DNA of 32,000 nucleotides. It comes from an uncultured Cocleimonas sp. Its GTDB lineage: Bacteria > Pseudomonadota > Gammaproteobacteria > Thiotrichales > Thiotrichaceae. The first letter of the stretch is position 1. Each line of letters opens with the position of its first letter. The stretch is from positions 10,903-42,902 of the forward strand of contig NZ_CANLZW010000018.1 in assembly GCF_947495625.1 (NCBI RefSeq), written 5' to 3'. A program made the position numbers and the translations under genes. Of this stretch, positions 5,006 to 32,000 are shown in pieces. Below the pieces are notes generated by a model. The model saw nothing but the letters and a program-made list of their open reading frames with translations. It ran no database searches and was not told the origin of the DNA.

Positions 5006-5088
5006 AAGTGCTGCTCTCCTTGTGTAAATAACAACGGCCACATATAGTAAATAGAAAAAAATAAAGTCTGCTATTTTCCTATATATTT

Positions 5089-10064: not shown

Positions 10065-11981
10065 CTATTCAGGTATTCCGCAACTAGCATTTTCTTTTGT
10101 TATTCGTTCTATTAACTCATCAATAGGTAAACTACCAAGGTCTTCACCAGATAGTGTACGCACTGCAACTGAGTTAGTTTCTACTTCTCGATCACCAACC
10201 ACCAAAAGGTAGGGAGTGCGTTGAAGCGTGTGCTCGCGAATTTTAAAGCCTATCTTCTCATTTCTCAAGTCTGAAACAGCTCTAATTCCGCTTTTTTTCA
10301 AGGTATTTTCAACTTTTCTCACAAAATCAGACTGTTTATCCGTAATATTCAAAATAACGGCTTGAACAGGTGATAACCAAAGTGGAAACTTACCTTCATG
10401 ATGCTCAATCAATATTCCAATAAATCTCTCGAAAGAACCCAATATTGCACGATGCAGCATAACGGGTGGTTTACGCGACCCATCTTCTGACACATATTCT
10501 GCATCAAGACGCACAGGCATAGAAAAATCCACCTGAATTGTTCCTAATTGCCACACACGGCCAATACTGTCTTTCAAAGAAAATTCAATTTTAGGACCAT
10601 AAAAAGCACCTTCTCCTGGTAACTCTTCCCAATCAAGGTTCTGCGCATCCAAGGCATCACCTAATGCTTTCTCTGCCTTATCCCAGTCTTCGTCGCTTCC
10701 TACTCTATTCTCAGGTCGCGTTGATAAGCGATAGATAACATCATCAAAACCGAAGTCACGATAAACATCGTGAAGGAACTCAATAAAATCTGCTACTTCT
10801 GGTTGGATCTGCTCTTCAGTACAGAAAATATGACCATCGTCTTGAACAAAACCACGCACACGCATCAAACCATGCAATGCTCCAGACATCTCATTTCTAT
10901 GACATGCACCGAACTCTGCAATCCTTAAAGGAAGGTCACGATAACTCTTAAGGCCTTGATTAAATATTTGAACATGACACGGACAATTCATCGGCTTTAG
11001 TGCGAACTGACGACCATCAGATTCTAATGAGAACATGTCTTCACTGTACTTAGCAGCGTGACCAGAACGTTCCCATAAAGAAAAGTCTACCAACTCAGGT
11101 GTATTCACCTCTTTGTAACCGCGTAAGCGTTGTTGCTCACGCATATACTGAGAAATCACCTGATAAATTGTCCAGCCTTTATCGTGCCAGAAAATTTGCC
11201 CTGGTGCTTCGTCTTGAATATGGAATAAATCTAGCTTGCGCCCTATTTTTCTATGATCGCGTTTCTCTGCTTCCTCTACACGGTGCAAATAAGCCTTAAG
11301 TGCTTTTTTGTTTTCCCATGCTGTTCCATAAATGCGTTGTAACATCTCATTATTAGAATCACCACGCCAATAAGCACCAGCAAGTTTAGTTAACTTAACC
11401 GCTGGAATTTTACCGGTACTTGGAACATGTGGCCCACGACAAAGGTCGATAAAATCACCTTGCTTATAAAGAGATAGATCTTCATCACTAGGGATGCTTT
11501 CAATGATTTCAGCTTTATACGTTTCACCCATATCACGGAAAAACTTAACCGCATCATCTCGAGACATGACACTACGTTCTACAGGTAAATCTTGCTTGAT
11601 CAAATCCTGCATACGTTTTTCGATAGCATCTACATCTTCTGGCGTGAAAGCACGCTCATATGAAAAGTCATAGAAAAAACCATCTTCAATCACAGGACCA
11701 ATAGTAACCTGTGCTTCAGGGAATAATTGCTTAACAGCCTGAGCCATTAAATGCGCCGAAGAGTGACGTATAACATCCACACCCTCTGGGCTGTTAGTTG
11801 TGATTATACTCAGCGATACATCTTCATCGATGATATGACTAGCATCGTATTGTTTTCCATCTATAGCACCTGCAAGTGTAGCTTTGGCTAAACCCGGACC
11901 GATATCTGCTGCCACATCTAAAATGGATACTGCGTTGTCGAATGAACGCTGACTGCCGTCTGGCAAAGTGATTGTTGGCAT
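10065..11981 (-). CDS. thrS: Threonine--tRNA ligase
   Basis: 638 aa. Contains a TGS domain, editing-domain 'HSSAH', class II core and C-terminal anticodon-binding domain. First gene of the thrS-infC cluster. Confidence 0.97.
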
Positions 11982-14660: not shown

Positions 14661-14663
14661 AAG

Positions 14664-17171: not shown

Positions 17172-17180
17172 GTTTACGAC

Positions 17181-20100: not shown

Positions 20101-21491
20101 ATTTTCTCAGCGATAATATTAAGCAGTTCTGCAAGGAGATTACTTTGGCCGATAGGTAGCTTTGACTTGTAGGCTGACAATTGCTCTTGCTCAATAATCA
20201 AAGGTTCAGCACAAATTAAATTAGAGCGCATTATTGTTGGTCGCTCAACAGGTTTTACGCCAACTTCCTCCCAATAACGTTGCCCACGAAGCCATACAGC
20301 CAAACCCGCAATTTGAATAGCACGGGGATCTATATCGATACCATATAAATTATGAGAAATAATTAAAGCAGGGATGCTCTTTTGATACTCTTCAAAATTT
20401 GGGTAAGTTTGTAGTAATGGCTCAAATTTCTCACGAAGAGGCCAGCCATTCTCTGGTTCTTTTTCCCAGGCCTCCTCATAAATAGCGATCAACAGATCAA
20501 AAACATACAAAAGGAAGTGTCCTGATCCACAAGCTGGATCAATTACCCTTAAGCACCTAGGATCCTTTGCCTCGCGATAAGGTACATATGGAATATCACT
20601 AGCAGCCTGCTCCTCTGTTAGTTTATCGTCCTTCTGTAAAAAAACAGCTTTTTCATCTATTACCAGATAATCACAAATTTCTGATATTGATGTTTGGCCT
20701 TGCTGCATTTCATACCAAGTTTTACCAACAGTATTATCAGTGAGAAATTCAACCACATAGCGTGGAGTAAAGAATTGATTGCGAACAGCCATTTCTCGGC
20801 TATTTCTTGGAGCTCTAGATTCACCTCTGGCCTGATCAATTTCAGAACGAACATTCCAGTATTGATAAATCCAGCCAATCGTTTCATCTTCACCCCATAG
20901 TATTTCAAGTTCGGCATGATTAATTAAATCAAGTAATTGGAGCAGTACAGTTTCACGTGGAAATAATCGCCCTTGGCTAGAATAACGATTAAATAAAACA
21001 GCTAAATCCAAACTTAGCTCATCGAACACGCTAAACAGATAGTGCTGATACGATTGACCAATTTCACCTAAACTGCTCCCAGAAATGCGTTGATATAGCT
21101 GAAAGCCTTTAGATTGAAAACCTTGGCTGACTGACTCTATAACGAATTGTCTGGCTTCTGCCATACGTAGTGCCGCCAAGCGGTTTAATACAGTAAATGC
21201 TTGCTCTCGAACGATACGATCTAAGGCCTCTATAATGACCGATTTATCCTGATGGGGATCAGACTTATGGTTCGATACAAGATAATGATCTAAAGTATCT
21301 CTCAATAGCGATGCCGTTTGTTGCTCGCTAGGACTCAGTGCTGGCAAATCACTAAGCTCCGCAACACTACCCATAACCGGGTCTAAACCATAAATGTTTT
21401 GTAATTGCTGGATAAACTCATCGCTGAGCAGTTTACGCGCATCACTCACAAACTTTTGCAGAAGATTACAGGTTGCTTTATCAAATGCCAT
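17181..21491 (-). CDS. pglX: BREX-1 adenine-specific DNA methyltransferase PglX
   Basis: 1436 aa. 'ETIGWIYQYWN', SAM motif 'VIDPACGSGHFLLY', catalytic 'VIVMNPPFG', and 'PGSPFSYWVS...QGLASGDDFRFARMWWEV'. ATG start with an AGGAA SD. Confidence 0.92.
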   Translation of the reverse strand: MAFDKATCNLLQKFVSDARKLLSDEFIQQLQNIYGLDPVMGSVAELSDLPALSPSEQQTASLLRDTLDHYLVSNHKSDPHQDKSVIIEALDRIVREQAFTVLNRLAALRMAEARQFVIESVSQGFQSKGFQLYQRISGSSLGEIGQSYQHYLFSVFDELSLDLAVLFNRYSSQGRLFPRETVLLQLLDLINHAELEILWGEDETIGWIYQYWNVRSEIDQARGESRAPRNSREMAVRNQFFTPRYVVEFLTDNTVGKTWYEMQQGQTSISEICDYLVIDEKAVFLQKDDKLTEEQAASDIPYVPYREAKDPRCLRVIDPACGSGHFLLYVFDLLIAIYEEAWEKEPENGWPLREKFEPLLQTYPNFEEYQKSIPALIISHNLYGIDIDPRAIQIAGLAVWLRGQRYWEEVGVKPVERPTIMRSNLICAEPLIIEQEQLSAYKSKLPIGQSNLLAELLNIIAEKMSLAGEMGILLKLEKDIRQALEQVEKEFKRYQESEIQDDLFGREHIDKMLNLSFSVQGLNSSFFAGAEKQLMKALSGFVNSSSSTTAFKNKLFADDIEHSLAFIDLMKLKFDVIVMNPPFGKPSVDSESYMEVNYPDCPTDVYQAFVSRAQELLIPLGFLGSISSRTGFFLKSYESWRSRVLLRKFRPLFIADFGGGVLDAMVETAAYVLRSTSGVEDLANRREILEQLIGVELSKSGDFSLPRFQKCRLEKLSREQALSELASLEEAGFITIDNESNFKARKCDSVIRAGLTEINEYHQYPKMLCFRLVDEKDKGHKLYEAITGKDLSSVLITNPSSFDAIPGSPFSYWVSDNLRSVFNKYPQFKSDCRSARQGLASGDDFRFARMWWEVSLENISPVQSHNFEVGGAYCELEHKWQTFAKGGKTTPYYLDIQMVCNWAYDGLEMRAFERSVIRNSDYYYRSGFSWPLRALRYTPSVLPKGTVFSVRSMSAFSFNEPIEKYLVLGNSSVFDSIFKLKLGKAHTPEFQVGVANVLPVPLSEMDAEENKLVGIFLKLYHLLSYGSQHNEVSRLYSGCWYSALGSHSLSESVSAYITLHEETECKIKNFQDCIDQKVLDYYNLVESDLPDGGLQNNWSTITGLPVEQDNARSFIAKDLLSNIFGRLVGRFWQTSVGMGKRDPFDPLPVPQINQDLKCLPLKDGQLKKLLMKGIVPIGQYFIVSADNVLPDILTELYSDNTGLLDELLAELNSESLSQYYTKPTAFFDYHLSQYSGSSRIAPVYLPLTSTAGNFTVWLFYQKLNRATLFTVLNDVVDPAVNTIEEQLSQVKGSNLADEAKLSSLLDEIKDFRDSIQEVLSTGFNCDIDDGVVITAAPLRNLFNHSSWCQELDDKWAGLEAGDYDWSKLAFNYWPERVLKKCQEDRSIAIAHGLETELWEYVEAPAARGNGTKWVWQAKEMTQVELEVYIEDKKVIR

Positions 21492-21511
21492 TATTACTAT
21501 TCCTAGTCATT

Positions 21512-24500
21512 CTATTCGCTGTCAGATAATTCAATTCTTATATCTAGCTCGTCGTAGTTTTTAAGCTCTTGTTTAAGGTCTTTGAGCTCTGTAATAACAC
21601 TATCAATACTTGAAGCTTTTTTTATGTTTTTTGGTACAGTCAGTTTTCTATGAAGTACTTTAGGATTATATTTCCCAGCTGCTTTCTCCTGCACTTGGCG
21701 ATCATGCTTTTCCTGCTCACGCTGCAAGCGGCGTTTACCAGCAGTATCTTTTACCGATTGCTGTAGTGCACGCAACGATGTAGTAATTTCATAATCACGA
21801 TTCAATAACGTTTGAATACCGCTTAAGTTTTGTTCGACTTCGCAACTGAATTGTTCTAACTGTCCTAACAAGTTATTACGTTCATCGACAGCCAACTCAT
21901 CCCAACCAGGGCTTCTTGGTAATTCTTCTTGGGCATTTTTAAGGCCCTGCTCAACATCCTGATTCATCTTGCTGGCTGCATCGGACACGCGAATTCTGAT
22001 ATTACCCAACATGGTTGAGAGATCTGCTCGATACTTATGAAAATCTTCCAGCTTTAAGCGTTGCTGTAACTGCTCAATGTCATCGGCCAATTCTGCTTTC
22101 AACTCACCAGGAACACCTGAATTTGGAAGGTTATTGATACCCTTACATTTTGCATCCAACTCCAATAAAGTGGCTTCCAAGCCATAATCCAGACTGACTT
22201 TCACCTCAGCTGCCCATTTTAAATTACTATGTAGAGGAGACTCTTCTGCTCCCATGCGTTGGGTCGCATCTGAACAATCATTGAACAGCACATCTCTTAG
22301 TGATTGTTGCAACTCCTCCACTCTAGCTTGGCCCGGGACATTGAGGCGATTGAGTTTTTCACCAAGTGCCCCAAACTGTTGTTGAAAAACCGGGAAGTTT
22401 TTCTGCGCAGCCTTGCTAATTTCTTCTTCCAAAGGGATGATTATATTGCCATCGGCAATAACCTCACCCAAACGCTTTGCGGCCAAAGCACACATTTCAT
22501 TGGATGGTCTATCGTCACGTAACGATATGCCAACATTTGCAAAAGATTTGTTCGTTTTAAAAACATCGATCGCTTGTTGCCCGACGCTTGTTAGTTCACG
22601 CCCTGCTACTTTGAGTTTAATTTCACCTGCACTAAGCAGAGCAGCTAACATATAGCGAGTGGTATCAATGGACCAGCCGAATTTAGGACGATTAAAATCT
22701 TCACTTATTTTTTTACCGTCTATAGTACCGTTACGTTCTATATAGTCACGTATACTGATTAGGCCTTTATGATTTTCGTCGATAGTAAAACTTCCACTGC
22801 TGTCCTTTATGACTAAACCTAAAGGATCTGTCTCACTGGTTGCACCACTCAAACCTGCTTTTAAAAACTTCTCCGCTAAAATAGTTTGGCCACGATAAGG
22901 GGCTTCACTATATCGCTCGTATACACGTTCTGCTACTCCTTTGAGATGCTTTTTATTCGATTCTAATAAATCTTGAGCAAAGGTATCCACTGCCGTATTG
23001 GTTCCTCTGAAGACAAAAGAACCTGCTTGCATGGATCGCTTGAGAATACGTTGTAACTCTGGCTCTAGCTTAGTCTGAGCACGATCTACTTCTGCATTAC
23101 AGTACTCTTTTACTTCTTTGTCTGCATCGTTACGGTGACGACGATTAATCTCTTCACAACGATAGATGTTAGCTAGTAGGTGATCAACCTCTGGTGGCTT
23201 ACGTCCCAATAGATAAATTGTATTTTGGTTAGCTTTTTCTCGAGAGTCTATAACCAGTGCGGCCAGATTATTGTCATATTCACTAGGATCAACAAACTCA
23301 AGCAATGTTTGAATAGGGTTTCTCTCTCCAGCCAAACCGCTAGGTAGACCATTTGGGCTTTGAAGTTTAAGACCGGTCTCTACCCCCAAAGAACCTTCAA
23401 CTTGGACTTTGGGTAGTGGCGATAAGCAATCCCTAAGAGCACCACTAAGAATTCTACGTAGATCGATGGTTTTTAAGCCGATTTCATTACGTGCTTGCTG
23501 AATTTCAGTTAGCTTTTCACTAATAAAACTCAGGTAGCCATCCTGCTCACTGAAAGGAATAGTGGCTTCATTAATTAACTCATCTACAGCTGAATTGAAA
23601 GAAGCCTCATCTTGAGTTTGAGTAATGCTAGATTGCATTAGAGCCATAGTGTTTTGGCGTGTTACTGGGAGATTTGTCAATATCTCTAATACGGCAACTG
23701 TTTTAGCGATGTTTATATGTAACTCGCTATCAAAGAAATTAGAACTTTGTACTTTTCCTACTGCTTGATGCTTGGTTGGAAAAGCACGCTTTATGTCTTT
23801 TTCTAGGGCGTCATAGAGTGTGACAGTATTTGCAAGCATACCGACATTTTCATTAGCTATTGGCTTGCCGTTAGCTCCTTCCACTAAAACATCTTGGATA
23901 ACTTTTATAGCGGAACGAAGCCCGATACCACCTGTTGATTTTGCCAGCTGACCAAGTAAAGTAAGTAGCACTTCAAAATGAGCTGGGAGGAATGGATAAA
24001 GGTTTACAAAACTCTCTTTGTCGAAGTCTGCGTCGTAAACACGGGCATCCTCCAATTTGGTGGCATGACGCAACGCCTGCCCATTTTTATCAAAAAGCTG
24101 ACCCAGCTGATCCGCACCCTCAGGGGATTTACCTAACAGCCTGCGATAACAGATTTCTTTAATATCGCTAGATTCCAAATTTATTTGGATAGGAAAGCGG
24201 TCTTTTAATTTGAACAATTGCGGCGAGTTAAGGGCAGCCTTTTCATTATCTTCTGTAAGCGTTTGCTGTGCCGTACCAATCATCCATACTTTGCCATCAC
24301 CGATATTTTTTAGGTTCTTCGCCAAGCCATCCAAGTTAAGAATTAGGTTATCGCGAGAGCCAACATACTGACCTACTTCATCGACGATAAAAATGATGTT
24401 CTCTTTACCAGAATGCTGACGAGCAATGTCAATCATTTCAGCAACACGGTCATTTTCAAAACGAATAATATCACTGGCTTCAGTAGAAAATGCGGAGTCG

Positions 24501-25171
24501 GTTTTAAAGAGCTGCGGATACATCTCATGAGCTATGACTGGAATTAATCCATCAACAATAAACGGATCATTTTGTAGACTCTTCCATTCTTCTCCTTCTG
24601 CATGTGTTTTGAATAGTCCCAGAAACTCGTCATACCGACCGTCTTTTTGTAATTTGCGCTCAAAGGCGGCAACTTTGAGGTTTCGAGAATATCCAGCCCA
24701 TTGCAAGACTTTGTAATACATCACCGTGGCTACATCTTCCATGGTCGCACCAGCGACTTGCTCGGATGCTAAATCTAGCATGATGACTGCTGCTGGAAAG
24801 CGCTTTGAAACTGTAGTCAGTAGAGATTTAGTTTGCGCTTTAGTTAGACGATCTTTTAAGTGATCAATAAAGGGGCGACCTTCCACCATAACAGAATCAT
24901 CAAAGGCTAAGCCAAGGTACTTAGTGAAGGAACTTTTACCTGAACCATAAAAACCAGATACCCATACTCCAACTTCATTTTCACCACCCTGCTCCATAGC
25001 CAACTGCATTTTTGAAAGTAGATCGGCGAAGTGCTCTTCGATACTATCAGTAGCCACATATTCAGAGATTTCTGATTTGAGGCGTGTCTCAGCATCAGTT
25101 CCGTAACTAATAACCTTCTCGATAGCGCGATCAATACCTTTGGTGGGGTCAAATAGTTGTTTAATTTGCAT
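21512..25171 (-). CDS. brxC: BREX P-loop ATPase BrxC/PglY
   Basis: Walker A 'GFYGSGKSSF' near the N-terminus, 'IFIVDEVGQY' Walker B, and a long helical C-terminus. I trimmed the start to the ATG at 25171 ('MQIKQLFDP'), which has an AAGGAAG SD. The longer ORF-track start would overlap brxB. Confidence 0.92.
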   Translation of the reverse strand: MQIKQLFDPTKGIDRAIEKVISYGTDAETRLKSEISEYVATDSIEEHFADLLSKMQLAMEQGGENEVGVWVSGFYGSGKSSFTKYLGLAFDDSVMVEGRPFIDHLKDRLTKAQTKSLLTTVSKRFPAAVIMLDLASEQVAGATMEDVATVMYYKVLQWAGYSRNLKVAAFERKLQKDGRYDEFLGLFKTHAEGEEWKSLQNDPFIVDGLIPVIAHEMYPQLFKTDSAFSTEASDIIRFENDRVAEMIDIARQHSGKENIIFIVDEVGQYVGSRDNLILNLDGLAKNLKNIGDGKVWMIGTAQQTLTEDNEKAALNSPQLFKLKDRFPIQINLESSDIKEICYRRLLGKSPEGADQLGQLFDKNGQALRHATKLEDARVYDADFDKESFVNLYPFLPAHFEVLLTLLGQLAKSTGGIGLRSAIKVIQDVLVEGANGKPIANENVGMLANTVTLYDALEKDIKRAFPTKHQAVGKVQSSNFFDSELHINIAKTVAVLEILTNLPVTRQNTMALMQSSITQTQDEASFNSAVDELINEATIPFSEQDGYLSFISEKLTEIQQARNEIGLKTIDLRRILSGALRDCLSPLPKVQVEGSLGVETGLKLQSPNGLPSGLAGERNPIQTLLEFVDPSEYDNNLAALVIDSREKANQNTIYLLGRKPPEVDHLLANIYRCEEINRRHRNDADKEVKEYCNAEVDRAQTKLEPELQRILKRSMQAGSFVFRGTNTAVDTFAQDLLESNKKHLKGVAERVYERYSEAPYRGQTILAEKFLKAGLSGATSETDPLGLVIKDSSGSFTIDENHKGLISIRDYIERNGTIDGKKISEDFNRPKFGWSIDTTRYMLAALLSAGEIKLKVAGRELTSVGQQAIDVFKTNKSFANVGISLRDDRPSNEMCALAAKRLGEVIADGNIIIPLEEEISKAAQKNFPVFQQQFGALGEKLNRLNVPGQARVEELQQSLRDVLFNDCSDATQRMGAEESPLHSNLKWAAEVKVSLDYGLEATLLELDAKCKGINNLPNSGVPGELKAELADDIEQLQQRLKLEDFHKYRADLSTMLGNIRIRVSDAASKMNQDVEQGLKNAQEELPRSPGWDELAVDERNNLLGQLEQFSCEVEQNLSGIQTLLNRDYEITTSLRALQQSVKDTAGKRRLQREQEKHDRQVQEKAAGKYNPKVLHRKLTVPKNIKKASSIDSVITELKDLKQELKNYDELDIRIELSDSE

Positions 25172-25199
25172 AGTTCTTCCTTTTATTCCTTCTACTGGA

Positions 25200-25784
25200 T
25201 TAATCACCAACATGCATGGAGCGGTAGTTACCATCTTCAGGGTAAAAACCCAAAAACCTTAATCGGGTTTGCCCTGTGCGTAAGCCTGGATATAAAAACA
25301 CAGTTGGCACACTAAAATGCCCTTGAAGCTGACTCTCTACTGAGCCAATTCGCATATAAGGGTGCAGTGCTTCTAAGTCTGTTACAAGTAACAGAGCCTT
25401 CTCATCACCCTCAAGCTCGTTAAGCTTTTGCTTTAATCTCACTTGCAAGCCTTTTTCTTTATCATTAAGCGTATTAGCAAGAGAGTTATTAGCTTTTATC
25501 CACTCCTGAGGGGCAGCAGCATCTTGCTTAAGCCAAAGATTGCGGCGAAATGCTGGCACTGATTTAAGAATATCATTCACATGCTCAGCAATAGAAAAAG
25601 TGTGAACAATAAAGCCCTGCTTTTGTAGCATTTGAACCCATGCTTTTGTTTGTCGCTTAACCTCGATGATTTGCTTAGGCGAAAACACTAAGTAATAAAC
25701 TGGTTCAAAGCTAGCGTGTTGGAACTCCCGTCCTTGCTGGATCTTGGTAACCAACTCATCAAAGTCCTGTTTCAATGATGACAT
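25200..25784 (-). CDS. brxB: BREX protein BrxB (DUF1788)
   Basis: 194 aa. 'PVYYLVFSPKQ', 'LLLVTDLEALHPYMRIGS' and 'PTVFLYPG' match the DUF1788 pattern. Strong GGAGGAGG SD. Located between brxA and brxC. Confidence 0.85.
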   Translation of the reverse strand: MSSLKQDFDELVTKIQQGREFQHASFEPVYYLVFSPKQIIEVKRQTKAWVQMLQKQGFIVHTFSIAEHVNDILKSVPAFRRNLWLKQDAAAPQEWIKANNSLANTLNDKEKGLQVRLKQKLNELEGDEKALLLVTDLEALHPYMRIGSVESQLQGHFSVPTVFLYPGLRTGQTRLRFLGFYPEDGNYRSMHVGD

Positions 25785-26553
25785 CTACGACCTCCTCCAT
25801 TGTTTTATAAGACCAACTGATAGAAACAACATCAGCGGCAGTTTGAATAATCCAAAATTTATGAACACTAAGTCGCTTTATCTCATCTCGAACATCTTCT
25901 GCCTGTAAGCCAAAAAGTAGCCAATCTGGATGATTGATTAGGTTATTGTCAGCTATGCCTTGAAGATGAAGATCATAGGCCAGAATGACTGTGGCACAAG
26001 GATTAACCCTGATGGGTGTTATTTGTCGTGCAGTCCGATTTAAAGGCTGCAACAGTTGATAGTCGACACATATGCTCAACAAATAAGATGCTTGTCTTTT
26101 GATGGTTGATTCAGACCATAATTTCTTAGTTTTGCCATCATGAGTTGATCTATGAACAAATTTTGTTGAGTCTTCATTTGTGATCTCAGTATAACCTGAG
26201 GCATAGCGCTCCCAATATAGTGTAGAAACAAAATCTTGTAATATAGGATTTGCTCGAGAGCTGTATATAAAGAACAATTGATTTAAAGATTTTGTTGAAA
26301 TTCGGTGGCTAAGTAAAGATAGCCATTTCGCAGGCTGAGGACTTGGTTTGAGATAACGCGGTGCAAAACATTCTGCTACGATATTACGAAGGCGACGAGC
26401 TGTAATATTAGGAAATTCACCCGAATCTAAAGCGGTATTTACTAAACTTTGGATATCCATTCCTTCAACCCAAAGATCCAGTAAAGACTGCGTTTCACCA
26501 ACTAACCCAAGACCTGCACCAAGTTGTGTTGTGTAGAACTTCTCTTCGATCAC
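25759..26553 (-). CDS. brxA: BREX protein BrxA (DUF1819), longer than usual
   Basis: The N-terminus 'YTTQLGAGLGLVGETQSLLDLW...ITARRLRNIVAECFAPRYL' fits the DUF1819 pattern. GTG start in a GTGA overlap with the upstream gene. It is 264 aa, against roughly 200 aa from memory for typical BrxA. Confidence 0.78.
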   Translation of the reverse strand: MIEEKFYTTQLGAGLGLVGETQSLLDLWVEGMDIQSLVNTALDSGEFPNITARRLRNIVAECFAPRYLKPSPQPAKWLSLLSHRISTKSLNQLFFIYSSRANPILQDFVSTLYWERYASGYTEITNEDSTKFVHRSTHDGKTKKLWSESTIKRQASYLLSICVDYQLLQPLNRTARQITPIRVNPCATVILAYDLHLQGIADNNLINHPDWLLFGLQAEDVRDEIKRLSVHKFWIIQTAADVVSISWSYKTMEEVVDVIIETGL

Positions 26554-27044
26554 CCTCTACTCCGATAGTAAGGGTAAACCTGTTGACCAGAACTAAAACC
26601 TTGAAGGTATGCTGCGGCCATGCATGTGACCATATTTTGGTCGAATGAATCAGATTTAATGAATAATGGACCAACACCGTTCGTAGTATCGCCATTAGCT
26701 AACTCGTGCAAGACCGCTGAAGCCGCTTCTTCCGAAGTTAAGGTTTCCAGTATCGAGGCATCTTTAATTAAACTTTGTGATATTTCATACTCTACATTTT
26801 CTGGAAGCCTAAATAGGTGCTGGACGTTACCGATACCGATGTATTCATCATGGATTACACGAGCAGCTGAACTTGCACCATTAATTCTTGATAGTGCAGC
26901 TGTTTTCGGAAAAACAGGACTTAGAAAAGCCTCTCCTGAACTAGATAAAAAGCTGCTTGGCCACCAATTCACTTGCTCCTTTTCCCCCATGTAAGCTACA
27001 CATACTCTCAATCTAACGATCTTATTCTTTATTTCTTCTTTCAT
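26550..27044 (-). CDS. Small BREX-operon leader protein of unknown function (possibly BrxE-like)
   Basis: 164 aa and the first gene of the operon. Its stop overlaps the brxA GTG (GTGA), which implies translational coupling. I recognise no motif with certainty ('NWWPSSFLSS', 'FRLPENVEYEIS'). Confidence 0.6.
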   Translation of the reverse strand: MKEEIKNKIVRLRVCVAYMGEKEQVNWWPSSFLSSSGEAFLSPVFPKTAALSRINGASSAARVIHDEYIGIGNVQHLFRLPENVEYEISQSLIKDASILETLTSEEAASAVLHELANGDTTNGVGPLFIKSDSFDQNMVTCMAAAYLQGFSSGQQVYPYYRSRG

Positions 27045-27324: not shown

Positions 27325-27576
27325 TTGCGCCCCAACTTTGACGCCACAAAAGAACTTGAAGCTTTGCGCAAACGAAAAGCGCTTAGTCGCAAGCGTCGAT
27401 TCAGAAAGAATCGATTAGAGCGTTATCGTGCGGAATTAATTTCCTTACGTCAATCGGGCGCAAGTTATCGAGAATTGTCTGACTGGATTCGAACCAATAA
27501 ACGCTGGAGAGTTGATCACACCGTTATTCGTCGATGGATGATCAAGTTACCAGAAATGGAGCATCAAAATGGCTAG
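27325..27576 (+). CDS. Small basic HTH protein (putative DNA-binding partner or regulator of the recombinase)
   Basis: 83 aa with a TTG start 5 nt after the AGGAGA SD. It has an Arg/Lys-rich N-terminus and an HTH-like 'ASYRELSDWIRTNKRWRVDHTVIRRW'. Overlaps the next gene by 8 nt. Confidence 0.6.
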   Translation: MRPNFDATKELEALRKRKALSRKRRFRKNRLERYRAELISLRQSGASYRELSDWIRTNKRWRVDHTVIRRWMIKLPEMEHQNG

Positions 27577-28474
27577 TTTTGCAAAAGCATCAACACAAGC
27601 CAATCGTGCTATTCGTCGTTCATTGGCTTTAGGTAAAGCAAGTCATAACTCGAAAGAGTCTGGGAAAATACATAGTGTAGCCACTGCAAAAGCGTATGAA
27701 GACTCTTTAAAATTAACAGCTCAATGGGATAAGGAAAATGGCGGAAAAGGATTAACACTTTTAGATACTTCAAGAGCAGTAGCTTATTTGATAGAACGTG
27801 CTGAATATGTAACTCAAAAAACCTTAGATAAAGATCGCCAAGCATTACAGATTCTTCCTAATGTGGATAAGCCAGAACGCATTAAGTCGCATGTTATAAA
27901 TACGGGACTTTCAACTCAAAGCCGAGCATATAGGCTTGAACAAGTTGATCATATTGTTAGCCATCAAAAAGAGCATAACGCTATCGCTACTGAAATATCC
28001 AGAGAGGCAGGACTTAGAGCACATGAACTGTATACGATTAGACCATTAGCAGAACAAGCTATCAGTACACATCGTAAATTTAGTGATGAACGTTTTGAAG
28101 GTCGCTTATCCTTTGTTTCTTATTCGGTTGTTGGTAAGGGTGGATTGATTCGAGAAGTAAGACTTTCACCAGAGTTATCACAACGATTAGAAAATAAACG
28201 ATTTGAAGAACCTAAAGATGCAATTGATAGAGGGATACACTATCAACAACATTATGATATTGGTGCTGGTAAGTCCTGGTCACAAAGTTTTTCAAGTGCA
28301 TCAAAACGAGAATTTGGTTGGTCGAATGGAGCTCATGGACTAAGACACAGCTACGCACAAGATCGAATGAAAGAAATTCAGGGTTTAGGACACACCTATC
28401 AATCAGCTCTTGAAATTGTTTCCCAGGAAATGGGACATTTTAGAGCTGATATTACCGAGGTTTATTTACGGTAA
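27569..28474 (+). CDS. Tyrosine recombinase / integrase (intact catalytic set)
   Basis: Catalytic residues are visible: Arg in 'GLRAHELY', Lys in 'VVGKGGLIREVRL', H-x-x-R in 'AHGLRHSYA', and His/Tyr in 'GHFRADITEVYL'. Confidence 0.85.
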   Translation: MASFAKASTQANRAIRRSLALGKASHNSKESGKIHSVATAKAYEDSLKLTAQWDKENGGKGLTLLDTSRAVAYLIERAEYVTQKTLDKDRQALQILPNVDKPERIKSHVINTGLSTQSRAYRLEQVDHIVSHQKEHNAIATEISREAGLRAHELYTIRPLAEQAISTHRKFSDERFEGRLSFVSYSVVGKGGLIREVRLSPELSQRLENKRFEEPKDAIDRGIHYQQHYDIGAGKSWSQSFSSASKREFGWSNGAHGLRHSYAQDRMKEIQGLGHTYQSALEIVSQEMGHFRADITEVYLR

Positions 28475-28749
28475 TGTTCACTAATAAAAAAGACCAAGAG
28501 ATTCTCGAGCTAAAAGATCAAATTGAAATATTAGAGTCTAAATTTAACCATGAAGAAAAGCTTCGGCTTGAGACTGGTAAAAAAGCAGATCGTGAATATA
28601 CGGATTTTTTAATCTACAAAAAAGAATCTCAGCAACGAGAAGATGAATTCAATGCTGAGATTGCTCGTTTAAGAAAGATTATTGCTGCAGAAAAGAAGAA
28701 AAGAATTAACTCAGCCTGTGCAAATAGGCGTAGGTTAAATGGCAGATAA
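28474..28749 (+). CDS. Small coiled-coil protein coupled to the recombinase
   Basis: 91 aa. Its ATG overlaps the recombinase TAA (TAATG). The sequence is charged, heptad-like and basic at the tail ('KKKRINSACANRRRLNGR'). Confidence 0.5.
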   Translation: MFTNKKDQEILELKDQIEILESKFNHEEKLRLETGKKADREYTDFLIYKKESQQREDEFNAEIARLRKIIAAEKKKRINSACANRRRLNGR

Positions 28750-29261: not shown

Positions 29262-29687
29262 TTACAGAATAAAAAAGTCATCAGATCTTGAGCTGGAACT
29301 ACTCGAACTGCTAGAACTTGAACTGTCGGAATCATTAGAGTTGTCTTTCTCACTAAGTACGGCAGTCAATACAATAGCTTCAGCTGTGAAGTCGTCTTTT
29401 TTATTGTTAGTACCGTTATCACTTTCAGATTCCCCCCACGTAGCCCATACCACTAAAAAACCTAGAGTTAAAAGGGGTAAAGTCATAGGAATTGCTTTGT
29501 ATTCTTGTAGGACATTGAAGTGCTCTAAAAAACTCATGAGTATCAGAGCTGGAATTGCGCAAATCCCAAGGAGTATCAAGCCAATTAAACACTCAGTAGT
29601 GAATGATTGTTTTTGCTCATCTTCCCTCTTAGTTAAGTAATAAGCAGCTATACAAGTAATCACAGTAATGGCAATGATCAATATCAT
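29262..29687 (-). CDS. Small three-TM membrane protein with acidic, poly-serine C-terminal tail
   Basis: I trimmed the start to the ATG at 29687 ('MILIIAITVITCIAAYYL'), which has a GGAGG SD 7 nt upstream. There are three hydrophobic segments. The tail reads 'DSDSSSSSSSSSSSSRSDDFFIL'. Confidence 0.6.
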   Translation of the reverse strand: MILIIAITVITCIAAYYLTKREDEQKQSFTTECLIGLILLGICAIPALILMSFLEHFNVLQEYKAIPMTLPLLTLGFLVVWATWGESESDNGTNNKKDDFTAEAIVLTAVLSEKDNSNDSDSSSSSSSSSSSSRSDDFFIL

Positions 29688-29833
29688 TTGTGTACCTCCG
29701 CATGTGGCTAATAGAGACATTTTAACACACAACCAATCAGCTAACTTAGATTAGGTTTTACATAAAAAACATGACCGGGTTACTTCAATATTACTGCGTG
29801 AAGAGCTGGATAACTTTTTCATATTTACCACTG

Positions 29834-29863
29834 AGTAAACACTTTCATAGGAAACTGTTTACT
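29834..29863. repeat. Inverted repeat AGTAAACA-N14-TGTTTACT
   Basis: AGTAAACA (29834-29841) and TGTTTACT (29856-29863). The same half-site recurs at 29942-29971. Confidence 0.5.
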
Positions 29864-29941: not shown

Positions 29942-29971
29942 AGTAAACAGATGTCGAGACAACTGTTTACT
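29942..29971. repeat. Inverted repeat AGTAAACAG-N12-CTGTTTACT spanning the recombinase start codon
   Basis: AGTAAACAG (29942-29950) and CTGTTTACT (29963-29971) are perfectly complementary. The ATG at 29951 lies in the spacer. Confidence 0.55.
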
Positions 29972-30535
29972 TCCAACGGGAAGCGCAAGTATTTAACTCA
30001 AGAAGAACAAGAACGCTTTTTACAATCAGCAAGCGATCTTGACCGCGCCGAGGTGCGGACTTTTTGCATGACGCTAGCCTATACAGGGTGCAGAATATCC
30101 GAAGCGTTAGAACTCACCATCGACCGCGTGGACTTATCCGCTAAAACAATCAGCATTCGCACTTTAAAACAGCGCGATAAAATCATTTATCGGGACGTGC
30201 CCGTTCCAGACCATTTTATTGATGCCTTAAAGCTGGTGCATCATATCCAGAAGATGCAAAAACTGAAAGGCGGTGGTAAAGACACCCTGCTTTGAAGTTT
30301 TCGTCGTGTCATGGCATGGAAACATATTTCTAGGGTAATGCTATCTGCAGGTATTACAGGCGCACATGCTACGCCTAAAGGTTTACGGCATGGCTTTGGT
30401 GTTCGTATGGCACAAAAAACTCGCAATCCTCGCCTCGTGCAAAAACTACTAGGGCATAAGAGCCTAGAGACTACCGCTATTTATATGGACTTAGTAGGCG
30501 AAGAGGAACGCGCAGAGGTATTAGCCGCGTGGTAG
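29951..30535 (+). pseudogene. Small (~194 aa) tyrosine recombinase interrupted by a single in-frame TGA
   Basis: ORFs 29951-30295 and 30311-30535 share one frame. The TGA at 30293-30295 is followed by AGT TTT CGT CGT GTC ATG. The N-terminal part has 'TGCRISEALEL' (Arg I). The C-terminal part has 'KGLRHGFG' and 'LGHKSLETTAIYMD' (His/Tyr). The stop sits where homologues, as I recall them, have Trp (TGG). Confidence 0.8.
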
Positions 30536-30632
30536 CGGTGAGTTTTGAAACAAACCTACCAAGAGTTAGACGGAATCTGTAATAACAGGCAAAATACAGA
30601 CTGCGTCTAATAAACTGTTAGGTAAATAAGTA

Positions 30633-30956
30633 ATGGCAATGGACAATGACTGGCATTCAATAGATGTAGAAGCTGAGGTAACTCTTTTACCAAGCAGTCA
30701 GTCAGGTCGTGAAAAAGGTATTACATCTGGTTACAGACCTAATCATAATTTCGGTTCTACTGAAAATCCTGTTTTTGGTATGGGACAAATCACAGTTCCA
30801 AAAGATGAATGGATAGAACCAGGAAAATCAAAGAATGTAGTAATTCAATTTTTATTACATGAAGAACTAAAAATTAAATTAGCTTCCGGTGTAGTTTGGC
30901 GTATTCAAGAAGGCTCTCGTCATGTTGGAAATGGTAAAATTATTAAGGTAATCTAA
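30633..30956 (+). CDS. Stand-alone EF-Tu domain III-like protein
   Basis: 107 aa. 'VEAEVTLLPSSQSGREKGITSGYRPNHNFGS...GQITVPKDEWIEPGKSKNVVIQFLLH...GVVWRIQEGSRHVGNGKIIKVI' aligns block for block with EF-Tu domain III '[52 protein letters not shown]...[21 protein letters not shown]'. Confidence 0.75.
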   Translation: MAMDNDWHSIDVEAEVTLLPSSQSGREKGITSGYRPNHNFGSTENPVFGMGQITVPKDEWIEPGKSKNVVIQFLLHEELKIKLASGVVWRIQEGSRHVGNGKIIKVI

Positions 30957-31003
30957 GTTGTATGTACTTAATATTAAATAAAATACCTAACAAGTCGCTT
31001 AAG

Positions 31004-31048
31004 CGGAAAAAAGACTCGCTCGCGCTCACATTTTTCCGCTTAGCAAGG
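31004..31048. repeat. 45-nt repeat, copy A (within a 12-bp-stem palindrome)
   Basis: CGGAAAAAAGACTCGCTCGCGCTCACATTTTTCCGCTTAGCAAGG. TAAGCGGAAAAA (31000-31011) pairs with TTTTTCCGCTTA (31031-31042). It matches copy B at about 38 of 45 positions by eye. Confidence 0.6.
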
Positions 31049-31263
31049 CGATATGTGTCTGCGACGCGAAATAGAAAAAGTACCCAAAAGTACGGGGGGG
31101 TGAATTCACAGGGTGTCATTTCAAAATTAAATAACATAGCCAGTAAGGAATTTACCGTTTATCTTATTATTAATACGGTTATATCAACTTCAATATAATA
31201 ATGAAAAATAATTGATTAGGATACGGAAGTTTAACTCCCAAATTGACTTTAAAGAGAGGTACT

Positions 31264-31641
31264 ATGAAAAAATCAGACCAACAGTCACTTGATTCTATAA
31301 TTAATCAATTAAGATTATTTCAACAAGATCATGCAGTCCGCTTTAAAGAATCTGATTTTGGATTTAATGTATATTTAGAAAAAAATATAATTAAAGCCAG
31401 AATGAATCGTCAAAGAATGGACGAAAGACTATTAAAATCGTTGACTCCCTATATTAATAATAACTCTCCTTTCAAAGCTTCATTAGAAGAAGATAAAAGT
31501 ATTACAATATACGTGCCTGCTTTATTTGAAATTAAACCTAGGCCTTATAATTATTCTAAAATTATGTTTCATACCGATTCAGAAGTCATAAAACTTTCCA
31601 TAGAGAGAGGGTATGAAGACCAGTTGGTCATACCTAACTAG
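31264..31641 (+). CDS. Hypothetical protein (orphan)
   Basis: I trimmed the start to the ATG at 31264 ('MKKSDQQSLDS'), which has an AGAGAGG SD. About 125 aa. No motif recognised. Confidence 0.5.
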   Translation: MKKSDQQSLDSIINQLRLFQQDHAVRFKESDFGFNVYLEKNIIKARMNRQRMDERLLKSLTPYINNNSPFKASLEEDKSITIYVPALFEIKPRPYNYSKIMFHTDSEVIKLSIERGYEDQLVIPN

Positions 31642-31840
31642 AAAAATTACACGCTTGTAATGATCTAGGCGTTATTGTCTCTGCGAGACAAAAAATATTT
31701 TGTGGTATTTGAGTATTGCCAGTGCGTTTAGTCGGTTGCAGTTAGCGTTGGTTTAGCTTTTGTAGCTTTGTTTTTTTGCACATCTGTGATGTTCTATTAT
31801 TATCCACCTTAAGTTAATATCACATAACAATTTGCCACAT

Positions 31841-31885
31841 CGGAAAAACTACTCGCTCTCGCCCGCATTTTTTCGCTGAGCAAGG
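31841..31885. repeat. 45-nt repeat, copy B
   Basis: CGGAAAAACTACTCGCTCTCGCCCGCATTTTTTCGCTGAGCAAGG. It has the same order of blocks as copy A, and CGGAAAAA pairs imperfectly with TTTTTCG. Confidence 0.6.
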
Positions 31886-32000
31886 AGTTAGGACTTAAAG
31901 GATTAAATTTAGTTTATGCCCTAAAAGGGTTCCTTTTTGGTGCAGTTGGCTATTACTTCTCCCGCTTTAACTTTCTACATTACGATTATTTTTGTTTGTT

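What the first reader, a model, noticed from the sequence alone, without database searches (positions are those of the whole stretch)
30633..30956. Free-standing EF-Tu domain III homologue in the accessory region
The 107-aa protein aligns along its whole length with the C-terminal beta-barrel (domain III) of EF-Tu. Conserved blocks are E-x-EV, GGR/SGR, GYRP-x-F-x-F, PG, and IREG-x-R-x-VG-x-G-x-(V/I)-x-KV. It has no GTPase domain or domain II. EF-Tu is a recurrent hub of phage-host conflict: the Lit protease with the Gol peptide, Doc kinase phosphorylation in the C-terminal 'GGRTVGAG' segment (Thr382 as I recall), some CdiA toxins that need EF-Tu, and the Qbeta replicase. Here the aligned segment reads 'GSRHVGNG', so the Thr position is His. 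A detached domain III could act as a decoy, a sensor bait or a toxin-neutralising mimic. It lies beside BREX and recombinases. I am not aware of a described function for such proteins.
Basis: partly seen in the sequence, partly recalled or inferred. Interest (0 to 1): 0.7.

Follow-up and report, generated by a model that had tools for sequence, protein, structure and literature searches.

The report
Integron cassette encoding solo EF-Tu domain III
The 107-aa gene really is a free-standing copy of the last domain of translation factor EF-Tu, carried on a mobile integron gene cassette; it belongs to a large uncharacterised protein family that context suggests, but does not prove, protects cells against bacterial toxins that exploit EF-Tu.

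Summary
ORF 30633-30956 encodes a full-length EF-Tu domain III homologue (NCBIfam E=1e-7; PDB E=5.5e-6; AlphaFold pLDDT 87, Foldseek E=2e-7, TM 0.75). The window contains no other tuf-derived sequence.

- Its start core GTTAGGT is the exact reverse complement of its own attC R'' core, ACCTAAC.
- An attC covariance model trained only on other organisms finds just two good sites in the 32 kb window (30985-31056, 31822-31893).
- A 98%-identical relative lacks cassette 2.
- There is no IntI, so the array is a CALIN. The upstream 194-aa recombinase is a pseudogene.

The family is large (212 clusters at E<=1e-10), almost always solo, and has no conserved partner gene. About half the sampled loci lie in attC arrays. 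These include two complete integrons and a class 1 integron on an Aeromonas KPC-2 plasmid.

Function is unproven. My best guess (about 0.35-0.4) is a decoy or immunity protein against EF-Tu-exploiting polymorphic toxins. One lineage follows an Rhs toxin, and other members are fused to SUKH or ankyrin immunity modules. The Thr382-to-His change is subfamily-specific; most members have Leu or Val there.

The parts
29951..30535 (+). Pseudogene of a small (194-aa) tyrosine recombinase with a catalytic domain only, co-directional with and 5' of the cassettes. It is not an integron integrase.
   Evidence: Pfam Phage_integrase matches both halves. It is interrupted by an in-frame TGA at 30293-30295, where the 98%-related locus L030 has TGG. 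The L030 copy instead carries a 5' deletion of about 150 bp. NCBIfam integron-integrase model TIGR02249 gives 54 bits against a cutoff of 265; the best matches are Xer-like catalytic domains and DNA invertases.
30617..30623 (+). Cassette-start core site GTTAGGT (R' type, GTTRRRY). Recombination point G|TT, so the domain III cassette begins at 30618.
   Evidence: It is the exact reverse complement of the cassette's own attC R'' core ACCTAAC at 30985-30991. The same rule holds with 0 mismatches in 9 other domain-III cassettes. No attC is detected upstream of it.
30633..30956 (+). Gene for the free-standing EF-Tu domain III-like protein (107 aa; WP_299876431.1).
   Evidence: AGG lies about 9 nt before the ATG. 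There is no promoter-like site in the 30536-30632 leader. Compared with L030 there are 4 synonymous and 2 non-synonymous codon changes.
30985..31056 (+). attC site of the domain III cassette (attC1). R'' is ACCTAAC. R' is degenerate: GATATGT instead of GTTATGT.
   Evidence: Covariance model R1, trained without window sites: 31.1 bits, E=3.7e-5, the top hit in an unfiltered scan of both strands of the window. The bottom strand folds as a hairpin, z=-2.75. The T-to-A change lies in the conserved GTT of the R' core.
31051..31887 (+). Second cassette, carrying a 132-aa ORF of unknown function (31243-31641). It is absent from the related locus L030.
   Evidence: L030 matches window 30016-31053 and then jumps to 31833-32000. 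The ORF has no Pfam, NCBIfam or PADLOC hit. A promoter-like site lies at 31170-31199.
31822..31893 (+). attC site of cassette 2 (attC2). R'' is ACATAAC and R' is GTTAGGA.
   Evidence: Model R1: 18.6 bits, E=0.029, the second-best hit in the window. Its R'' is complementary to the inferred original start of cassette 2, GTTATGT, with one mismatch to the present GATATGT.

Best explanation
SHOWN. The gene is a single-ORF, promoterless integron gene cassette (30618-31050). It sits in a short attC array that has no integron integrase (a CALIN), in an accessory island next to BREX in an uncultured Cocleimonas (Thiotrichales). It encodes a member of a large, phylogenetically broad family of free-standing beta-barrels homologous to EF-Tu domain III. 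The family moves between genomes as cassettes, including in complete chromosomal integrons and in a class 1 integron on a conjugative KPC-2 plasmid. It has no conserved partner gene, so the protein must act alone.

INFERRED. The most conserved residues are Y-R-P-N-H-N-F and W-R-I-Q-E-G. They occupy EF-Tu positions 326-332 and 374-379. From the literature as I recall it, this is the face of domain III that packs on the G domain, lines the kirromycin pocket, touches the tRNA T-stem and carries Thr382. I therefore read the protein as a binding module that presents a modified copy of this EF-Tu surface.

MOST LIKELY MECHANISM (inferred, about 0.35-0.4). It acts as an immunity-type decoy. It binds an incoming toxin or effector that normally docks on or exploits EF-Tu, as several T6SS, Rhs and CDI toxins do. 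That blocks the toxin's entry, activation or access to its target. Integrons would stockpile it as an orphan immunity gene.
For: Cassette:
- The start core and the cassette's own R'' core are exact reverse complements. The rule holds in 10 of 10 loci, against 1.3 mismatches for non-cognate pairs.
- The attC covariance model shows strong covariation: L-box stem 83.5% paired, 10 of 11 pairs compensatory, score 0.536 against 0.142 for shuffled controls.
- Trained without window sites, the model finds only two good hits in the window, both on the + strand.
- Across 55 loci, all 90 hits lie on the strand of the domain III gene.
- 19 loci have an attC within 150 nt of the gene, and 24 of 55 lie in arrays.
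- True IntI genes are present in L009 and L025 (495 and 432 bits).
- S. degradans has about 35 attC sites in 20 kb.
- Cassette 2 is an indel relative to L030.
- There is a copy in a class 1 integron on pKPC-1ac6.

Fold and family.

Solo action: there is no conserved neighbour.

Immunity reading:
- P0178 lies 273 bp downstream of an Rhs toxin whose C-terminal tip follows the PxxxxDPxGL motif. This is seen on at least 23 contigs.
- P0062 is domain III fused to SUKH/SMI1_KNR4, and P0167 is ankyrin repeats fused to domain III.
- A decayed copy lies in a Persicobacter array with a SUFU-domain gene and a TNT-toxin-related gene.
- SUKH, SuFu and Ank are established immunity modules that fuse into polyimmunity proteins (PMC3482391).
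- Orphan immunity genes are stockpiled in integron-like arrays with a 5' recombinase (10.1101/471110).
- Rhs and T6SS toxins bind or need EF-Tu (10.1101/2025.10.28.685041; PMC9825190).
Against: - The immunity evidence comes from a few lineages only: one Rhs-adjacent, one SUKH fusion, one Ank fusion and one pseudogene.
- None of it concerns the window's own close subfamily, whose contexts are cassette arrays that say nothing about function.
- The Rhs toxin tip has no recognisable domain and no retrievable homologues, so its link to EF-Tu is unknown.
- The gap between the Rhs gene and the domain III gene is 273 bp, rather long for an immunity gene.
- About 15 non-integron copies have ordinary housekeeping neighbours.
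- Published EF-Tu-binding toxins contact mainly the G domain or domain II. That is my recollection for CdiA-NC101; describes contacts via GDP.
- The conserved motifs could be fold determinants inherited from EF-Tu rather than a retained interaction surface.
- attC1 has a mutated R' core, and the array lacks IntI, so this copy is probably no longer mobile.
Confidence: 0.4

Rival explanations
1. Anti-phage cassette. The solo domain III acts as bait or decoy for a phage protein that hijacks or marks EF-Tu. Examples recalled from the literature are the Gol/Lit system and RNA-phage replicases. It would either sequester that protein or trigger a response.
For: - Integron cassettes are now known to encode many small phage-defence systems (10.1101/2024.07.02.601719 and 10.64898/2026.03.17.712381).
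- The window copy lies 3.6 kb from a complete type 1 BREX.
- L067 lies beside a type IIG R-M, DUF3800 and a group II intron.
- The neighbouring cassette in L001 has a weak HEPN_AbiU2 match.
Against: - There is no PADLOC hit.
- A 107-aa binding domain has no effector module and no conserved partner.
- Adjacent cassettes in an array are functionally independent, so proximity means little.
- No Lit-like protease was seen in any locus.
- No phage carries a homologue.
Confidence: 0.2
2. Translation modulator. The solo domain III binds a normal EF-Tu ligand and tunes or protects translation under stress. Candidate ligands are the tRNA T-stem, EF-Ts, or the G domain of EF-Tu in its open GDP form.
For: - The family keeps the equivalents of EF-Tu E378 (E in 251 of 262 members), Q329 (N in 237 of 262) and R318.
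- By my recollection of the ternary-complex literature, these residues contact the T-stem, and they lie in the domain I/III interface.
- Many copies sit among housekeeping genes. One follows a class I lysyl-tRNA-synthetase-type gene (PF01921) and a GtrA-like gene.
Against: - Family-specific replacements alter the interface: F330 to His (255 of 262), A375 to Arg (177 of 262), R377 to Gln (213 of 262).
- The patchy, cassette-borne, horizontally moving distribution is typical of conflict or niche genes rather than core translation factors.
- A dominant-negative EF-Tu fragment would be expected to need an antidote or tight control, and none is seen.
Confidence: 0.15
3. Pseudosubstrate inhibitor of Doc/Fic-type kinases that phosphorylate EF-Tu Thr382.
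For: The Thr382-equivalent position is almost never Thr or Ser (Thr in 2 of 262), and the surrounding G-x-R-x-V-G-x-G segment is conserved. Tox-DOC toxin domains do occur in polymorphic toxin systems (PMC3482391).
Against: The position is mostly Leu or Val (201 of 262) and is His only in the window's subfamily, which fits a buried strand residue. No Doc/Fic gene was found next to any copy.
Confidence: 0.05
4. Resistance cassette against EF-Tu-targeting antibiotics (elfamycins such as kirromycin or enacyloxin). It would work by sequestering the drug or substituting for the target, in the way accessory housekeeping copies in integrons can give resistance.
For: - Integrons carry resistance genes and accessory copies of drug targets, for example peptide deformylases (PMC12690207).
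- One homologue sits in a class 1 integron beside aac(6')-Ib4.
- The conserved motifs coincide with the positions I recall as kirromycin-resistance sites: G316, Q329, A375 and E378.
Against: By my recollection, elfamycins bind in a pocket formed jointly by domains I and III, so a lone domain III cannot form it. The pocket residues are substituted in the family.
Confidence: 0.05
5. Non-functional remnant: a decayed piece of a duplicated tuf gene, or a spurious ORF.
For: Pfam's match is below the gathering score. This array looks inactive: the recombinase is a pseudogene and the attC1 R' core is mutated. One homologue (Persicobacter) is itself a pseudogene.
Against: - There is no tuf-derived flank.
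- 212 clusters at 50% identity reach E<=1e-10, with near-invariant family-specific motifs, across Proteobacteria, Planctomycetota, Verrucomicrobiota and Desulfuromonadota.
- The ORF is intact in both the window and L030 while the adjacent recombinase has decayed twice independently. Substitutions are 4 synonymous to 2 non-synonymous.
- The structure model is confident.
Confidence: 0.02

Closest known systems
EF-Tu domain III (Pfam GTP_EFTU_D3, PF03143)
   Same: Homologous over the full domain. The beta-barrel fold is the same (Foldseek E=2e-7, TM 0.75). The GGR, GYRP, PG(D/E) and (R/Q)EG-x-R-x-VG-x-G blocks are shared.
   Different: It is free-standing, with no G domain or domain II. Family-specific near-invariant replacements are Q329N, F330H, Y331N, F374W, A375R and R377Q, and Thr382 is Leu, Val or His. 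It is horizontally mobile rather than a core gene.
Integron gene cassettes of unknown function (gcu), in sedentary chromosomal integrons and CALINs
   Same: It is a single promoterless ORF followed by an attC site with R''/L''/L'/R' architecture. The start core is complementary to the cassette's own R''. The same cassette ends (GTTAGGT/ACCTAAC) occur in different hosts, and there is presence/absence variation at the cassette level.
   Different: The window's array has no IntI. Instead a small non-IntI tyrosine recombinase pseudogene lies co-directionally upstream. The attC1 R' core is mutated, so this copy is probably fixed in place.
Orphan or polyimmunity genes of polymorphic toxin systems (Imm-SUKH, Imm-SuFu, Imm-Ank; rAID-1 arrays of Bacteroidales)
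   Same: It is a small stand-alone binding domain. Some members are fused to SUKH or ankyrin modules, and one lineage lies directly after an Rhs toxin. It is stockpiled in co-directional arrays behind a 5' tyrosine recombinase, with repeated intergenic recombination sites.
   Different: No toxin partner is known, and no neutralisation has been shown. An EF-Tu-like domain is not among the immunity families listed by Zhang et al. 2012 (0 mentions). The arrays here use true attC sites and occur in Proteobacteria, not Bacteroidales.
EF-Tu-exploiting antibacterial toxins (Tse6, Serratia Rhs2-CT, CdiA-CT EC869/NC101, TreTu) and their immunity proteins
   Same: These establish that EF-Tu is a recurrent docking or activation factor, or a target, for delivered toxins. 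That makes an EF-Tu surface mimic a plausible countermeasure.
   Different: Their known immunity proteins (RhsI2, TriTu, CdiI, Tsi6) bind the toxin directly and are not EF-Tu-like. None of these toxins was found next to a solo domain III gene.

Membership tests
EF-Tu domain III superfamily (PF03143) | Significant full-length profile match to the domain | tested here: met
   NCBIfam EF-Tu models E=1.4e-7. PDB phmmer E=5.5e-6. Family profile against E. coli EF-Tu 56.8 bits. Caveat: the single-sequence Pfam score is 23.8, below the gathering score of 27.
EF-Tu domain III superfamily (PF03143) | Six-stranded beta-barrel fold superposable on domain III | tested here: met
   AlphaFold2 pLDDT 87. All top Foldseek PDB hits are EF-Tu domain III, E=2e-7, TM 0.75.
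Translational GTPase (EF-Tu/EF1A/SelB) | G domain and domain II N-terminal to domain III | tested here: not met
   The ORF is 107 aa. tblastn with E. coli EF-Tu finds no other segment in the window. Nearly all of the best 150 family representatives listed are 95-125 aa.
Integron gene cassette | 3' attC site with R''-L''...L'-R' imperfect inverted repeats | tested here: met
   Independent covariance model: 31.1 bits, E=3.7e-5 at 30985-31056. Covariation of the model structure was verified. Caveat: the R' core reads GAT instead of GTT.
Integron gene cassette | The core at the cassette start (GTTRRRY) is complementary to the cassette's own attC R'' | tested here: met
   GTTAGGT (30617-30623) against ACCTAAC (30985-30991), 0 mismatches. 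This holds in 10 of 10 loci.
Integron gene cassette | Mobility as a unit: the same cassette in different arrays, and cassette indels between related arrays | tested here: met
   The same cassette ends occur in the window, S. degradans L004, L001 and L037. Cassette 2 is present in the window and absent from L030.
Complete integron | An IntI integron integrase (TIGR02249) adjacent to the array | tested here: not met
   The window recombinase scores 54 bits against a cutoff of 265 and is a pseudogene. The 301-aa gene at 27569-28474 has no NCBIfam hit. The feature is met for relatives L009, L025 and pKPC-1ac6. The window ends 107 nt after attC2, so the downstream side is unseen.
Polymorphic-toxin immunity protein | Encoded immediately downstream of a toxin C-terminal domain | tested here: inconclusive
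   Met for lineage P0178 (Rhs, 273-bp gap). Not met for the window copy or most others.
Polymorphic-toxin immunity protein | Fusion or clustering with established immunity domains (polyimmunity) | tested here: inconclusive
   Domain III + SUKH (P0062) and Ank + domain III (P0167). A decayed copy lies in an array containing a SUFU gene. These are few lineages, and none is in the window's subfamily.
Polymorphic-toxin immunity protein | Binds and neutralises a cognate toxin | not testable with these tools
   This needs co-expression rescue and binding assays. Structure prediction of complexes was not available.
Type II toxin-antitoxin module (for example Phd/Doc) | A conserved adjacent partner gene | tested here: not met
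   All-against-all comparison of neighbours across loci found no shared partner. Pfam annotation of 45 neighbours gave 44 different families, with none of the 25 listed matching more than one neighbour.
Known anti-phage defence systems (PADLOC) | A match to any defence-system protein model | tested here: not met
   No hit at E<=0.01.
rAID-1 (recombinase-associated acquired interbacterial defence) | A 5' XerD-like recombinase closely related to BF9343_RS08045, with co-directional orphan immunity genes, in Bacteroidales | not tested
   The layout is analogous. But the recombinase here is a 194-aa non-Xer-length protein in a gammaproteobacterium, and its identity to the rAID recombinase was not measured.

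The most novel reading that the evidence does not exclude
Solo EF-Tu domain III proteins are a new class of 'cofactor-mimic' immunity proteins. They do not occlude a toxin's active site. Instead they imitate the EF-Tu surface that delivered toxins (Rhs, T6SS, CDI) must grasp to enter or become active. This would give protection that is not tied to one toxin family. Integrons, including clinical class 1 integrons, trade these proteins as orphan immunity cassettes.
Probability: 0.3. Interest if true: 0.8.

Novelty: new variant of a known kind. Interest (0 to 1): 0.6.

Why it matters
About 80% of integron cassettes have no known function, by my recollection of the integron literature. This work assigns one recurrent cassette to a defined fold and a large family: at least 212 clusters at 50% identity (E<=1e-10), reaching a class 1 integron on a conjugative KPC-2 plasmid.

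EF-Tu is a hub for delivered antibacterial toxins and for phage-host conflict. If the protein is an EF-Tu surface mimic that disarms EF-Tu-dependent effectors, three things would follow:
- It would add a new immunity principle: mimicry of the host cofactor rather than direct inhibition of the enzyme.
- It would link proteobacterial integrons to the stockpiling of interbacterial immunity genes, so far described for Bacteroidales rAID arrays.
- It would give a simple reagent for finding which toxins depend on domain III of EF-Tu.

Even if the mechanism differs, the near-invariant R-P-N-H-N-F / W-R-I-Q-E surface defines a testable binding site.

Tried and rejected
1. A home-made attC detector (complementary R cores plus folding energy) was unspecific. 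It gave 84-114 hits in 136 kb of non-integron DNA and missed the window's sites. I replaced it with a covariance model.
2. A search for relatives of the Rhs toxin tip of L031 found nothing: Pfam and PDB by sequence gave no hit, and the large protein search returned nothing. The toxin's activity is therefore unknown.
I used A1 instead.
5. The 1214-aa protein upstream of the domain III-SUKH fusion shows no toxin domain, so that locus cannot be called a toxin locus.
6. The tRNA-like stretch after the L008 copy is not a tRNA by ARAGORN.
7. Rfam finds no RNA family in the window.
8. The Persicobacter plasmid copy turned out to be a pseudogene with two in-frame stops, so I downgraded that context.
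9. The idea that the upstream recombinase is a truncated IntI was rejected on HMM score.
10. The decayed-tuf hypothesis was rejected.
Full report
**1. The observation**

The ORF at 30633-30956 (+) is real, ATG-initiated and 107 aa long. It is homologous to EF-Tu domain III along its whole length:
- Pfam GTP_EFTU_D3: residues 11-106 against profile 7-105/106, E=5.9e-5. The score of 23.8 bits is below the gathering score of 27.
- NCBIfam EF-Tu models: positions 306-395/396, E=1.4e-7.
- phmmer against all PDB sequences returns only EF-Tu chains, the best being Thermus 316-403 at E=5.5e-6.
- A 22-sequence alignment of homologues gave an AlphaFold2 model with pLDDT 87 and pTM 0.78. Its best Foldseek matches in PDB are all EF-Tu domain III (E=2e-7, TM 0.75).
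- A profile of 65 diverse family members matches E. coli EF-Tu 302-392 at 56.8 bits.

The window holds no other tuf-like sequence: tblastn with E. coli EF-Tu finds nothing even at E<=10.

**2.

Directly after the stop codon lies a 72-nt imperfect palindrome (30985-31056), and a related one lies at 31822-31893.

The homologue in Saccharophagus degradans (L004) sits in a textbook cassette array, with about 35 TAAC...GTTA sites in 20 kb. There the domain III gene is a single-gene cassette between two of those sites.

I aligned 27 attC sites from other organisms, using none from the window or its close relative L030.
- Covariation was strong. The L-box stem was 83.5% paired, and 10 of 11 pairs showed compensatory changes. 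The covariation score was 0.536, against 0.142 for shuffled and at most 0.163 for slid controls.
- I built a covariance model from this alignment.
- Run unfiltered over both strands of the 32 kb window, its only good hits are the two predicted sites, both on the + strand: 31.1 bits (E=3.7e-5) and 18.6 bits (E=0.029).

Integron cassettes obey a circularisation rule: the GTTRRRY core at a cassette's start is the reverse complement of its own attC R'' core.
- The window has GTTAGGT at 30617-30623 and ACCTAAC at 30985-30991, an exact match.
- The rule holds with zero mismatches in 10 of 10 loci. Non-cognate pairs average 1.3 mismatches in the three variable positions.
- Cassette 2 (31051-31887, a 132-aa ORF of unknown function) shows GATATGT against ACATAAC. 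So the R' core of attC1 carries a T-to-A mutation.

L030 is a metagenomic contig whose domain III protein is 98% identical. It matches window 30016-31053 and then jumps to 31833-32000, so it lacks cassette 2. This is presence/absence variation at the cassette level.

**3. The platform**

The window has no integron integrase. The gene just upstream (29951-30535, co-directional) encodes a 194-aa tyrosine recombinase with a catalytic domain only.
- It scores 54 bits on the IntI model, against a cutoff of 265.
- It is a pseudogene here (TGG to TGA at 30293-30295). In L030 it is independently damaged by a 5' deletion.
- The domain III ORF is intact in both loci, with 4 synonymous and 2 non-synonymous changes.

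By the usual nomenclature the array is a CALIN. It lies in an accessory island that also holds a complete type 1 BREX, next to thrS. The organism is an uncultured Cocleimonas sp., and the protein is WP_299876431.1, 'hypothetical protein'.

**4. The family**

- An exhaustive profile search found 1263 representatives (50%-identity clusters) at E<=1e-3 and 212 at E<=1e-10. Nearly all of the best 150 listed are 95-125 aa.
- A second search of the annotated collection returned 384 proteins. The 120 best listed are all short, and the only names are automatic ones.
- Genomic loci come from Gamma-, Beta- and Alphaproteobacteria, Planctomycetota, Verrucomicrobiota and Desulfuromonadota.
- The attC model gave 90 hits at E<=1 across 55 loci, and all 90 lie on the strand of the domain III gene.
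- 19 loci have an attC within 150 nt of the gene, and 24 of 55 lie in arrays. The proportion is higher among relatives at 44% identity or more.
- L009 and L025 are complete integrons with divergent IntI genes (495 and 432 bits).
- An intact homologue is the third cassette of a class 1 integron (intI1, aac(6')-Ib4, LysE, then domain III). It sits on the conjugative IncU KPC-2 plasmid pKPC-1ac6 of Aeromonas sp. ASNIH7. It is not listed in the plasmid collection's gene table, which is incomplete. It obeys the same core rule, GTTAGGC against GCCTAAC.
- No phage or viral contig carries the family.
- No protein neighbour is conserved. Neighbours of non-integron copies are an unrelated mix of housekeeping genes.

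The protein must therefore act on its own.

**5. Conserved surface**

Counts among 262 members are as follows (mapping to EF-Tu).

| Solo domain III residue | Members with it | EF-Tu equivalent |
|---|---|---|
| Tyr34 | 236 | Y326 |
| Arg35 | 249 | R327 |
| Pro36 | 257 | P328 |
| Asn37 | 237 | Q329 |
| His38 | 255 | F330 |
| Phe40 | 248 | F332 |
| Trp89 | 241 | F374 |
| Ile91 | 228 | I376 |
| Gln92 | 213 | R377 |
| Glu93 | 251 | E378 |
| Gly94 | 236 | G379 |

From my knowledge of the EF-Tu literature (kirromycin-resistance sites G316, Q329, A375 and E378; T-stem contacts of Q329 and E378; Doc target Thr382), these positions form the face of domain III that meets the G domain and the tRNA. This step rests on recollection and was not computed here.

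The Thr382-equivalent position is Leu 162, Val 39, His 25, Ile 12 and Thr 2. His is therefore peculiar to the window's subfamily, and the position looks like a packing residue.

**6. Function**

Nothing has been shown directly. Four independent contextual hints point to polymorphic-toxin immunity:
- (a) P0178, a 106-aa member seen on at least 23 contigs, lies 273 bp downstream of, and co-directional with, a giant Rhs protein of more than 1900 aa (SpvB, TcdB_midN, RHS). Its C-terminal tip follows the canonical ...YVDPSGLE cleavage motif. This is the classic position of an immunity gene.
- (b) P0062 is domain III fused to a SUKH/SMI1_KNR4 domain.
- (c) P0167 is ankyrin repeats fused to domain III.
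- (d) A decayed copy lies in a co-directional array of at least 25 small genes on a Persicobacter plasmid. That array includes a SUFU-domain gene and a TNT-toxin-related gene.

The literature supplies the framework:
- SUKH, SuFu and Ank are established immunity modules that are often fused into polyimmunity proteins. No EF-Tu-like immunity domain is listed (PMC3482391).
- Orphan immunity genes are stockpiled in Bacteroidales rAID-1 arrays. These consist of a 5' tyrosine recombinase, co-directional genes and integron-like repeats, the same layout as this window (10.1101/471110).
- Several delivered toxins bind or need EF-Tu. Serratia Rhs2-CT requires it for intoxication, Tse6 likewise, and TreTu ADP-ribosylates it.

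The best-supported mechanism is therefore a decoy that imitates an EF-Tu surface and intercepts such effectors. I put this at about 0.35-0.4, for these reasons:
- The hints come from few lineages, and none is in the window's own subfamily.
- The Rhs tip has no recognisable domain or retrievable homologue.
- Many copies have ordinary neighbours.

Rivals are an anti-phage decoy (0.2), a modulator of tRNA, EF-Ts or EF-Tu (0.15), a Doc pseudosubstrate (0.05), elfamycin resistance (0.05) and a non-functional remnant (0.02).

**7. Verdict**

- The element is a new variant of a known kind: an integron cassette of unknown function, now tied to a defined fold, a large family and a testable immunity hypothesis.
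- This particular copy is probably immobilised, because the attC1 R' core is mutated, there is no IntI and the recombinase is a pseudogene. The coding sequence itself is maintained.

Noticed in passing
window 12567-26553 (- strand): A complete type 1 BREX system lies immediately next to thrS (10065-11981). It comprises BrxA 25759-26553, BrxB 25200-25784, BrxC 21512-25234, PglX 17181-21491, PglZ 14664-17171 and BrxL 12567-14660, all with very strong PADLOC matches. The 164-aa ORF upstream of brxA (26550-27044) has no family match.
   Followed up: partly
window 29951-30535; L030 1516-2034: The small 194-aa tyrosine recombinase 5' of the cassettes is inactivated independently in two related loci: TGG to TGA here, and a 5' deletion of about 150 bp in L030. 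The recombinase + domain III cassette unit occurs in two unrelated chromosomal settings: BREX island here, LysR/TRAP transporter in L030. It may have moved as a unit. This could be a non-IntI recombinase associated with attC cassettes, analogous in layout to rAID-1.
   Followed up: partly
window 29834-29863 and 29942-29971: Two copies of a 30-bp palindromic element (AGTAAACA-N14-TGTTTACT) lie 108 bp apart. The second overlaps the recombinase start codon. The left boundary of homology with L030 lies about 10 bp upstream of the first copy (window 29824). They could be recombinase-binding or operator sites.
   Followed up: no
window 27569-28474 (+): A 301-aa ORF has tyrosine-recombinase-like C-terminal motifs (HGLRHSY ... 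GHF...VYLR). It gets only a weak Pfam N-terminal SAM-like hit and no NCBIfam match, so it is a divergent integrase-like gene. It is followed by a 91-aa coiled-coil-like ORF (28474-28749).
   Followed up: no
window 29262-29732 (-): A 156-aa predicted membrane protein that ends in a run of 13 serines. It has only weak DUF2157/DUF6077 hits.
   Followed up: no
window 31632-31677 (+): A weak third attC-like site (12.3 bits, E=0.82) overlaps the stop codon of the 132-aa ORF. Its R'' core ACCTAAC is identical to that of the domain III cassette. It could be a vestigial short attC, in which case 'cassette 2' would be two cassettes.
   Followed up: no
L009, L011, L017, L025, L069 (stop codons of the domain III genes): In many homologues the TAA stop codon is part of the attC R'' core (xxxTAAC), so the coding sequence runs right into the recombination site.
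   Followed up: partly
L069 (NZ_CP026227.1, Aeromonas sp. ASNIH7 pKPC-1ac6) 4846-5312: An intact domain III-like ORF, not listed in the plasmid collection's (incomplete) gene table, lies in a class 1 integron on a conjugative KPC-2 plasmid. The junction with the preceding LysE cassette is only about 19 nt (GTCTAAAACAAAGTTAGGC), which looks like a collapsed attC (fused cassettes). The same match occurs on plasmid NZ_CP026123.1 (ASNIH5).
   Followed up: partly
L011 and L020 (Dechloromonas sp. CZR5, two scaffolds): One genome carries two domain III cassettes in two attC arrays. The attC sites downstream of them are nearly identical.
   Followed up: no
L031 5080-5728: The Rhs C-terminal tip is about 215 aa. 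It has a hydrophobic stretch followed by a domain of about 110 aa beginning ...RVTIYRAIGPAELDYLLEHGNYGHSPSRGGKYF... It matches no Pfam family or PDB sequence, so it may be a new toxin domain.
   Followed up: partly
proteins P0025, P0061, P0140, P0124: Other architectures exist in the family. P0025 is a tandem double domain III (245 aa). P0061 and P0140 have N-terminal hydrophobic segments (P0061 also has Cys-rich zinc-ribbon-like motifs) ahead of domain III. P0124 has an unassigned N-terminal extension of about 125 aa.
   Followed up: no
L067 915-8526: One solo domain III gene lies in a mobile or defence-type island: DUF3800, an MmeI-like type IIG restriction-modification enzyme, a group II intron reverse transcriptase and a resolvase.
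   Followed up: no
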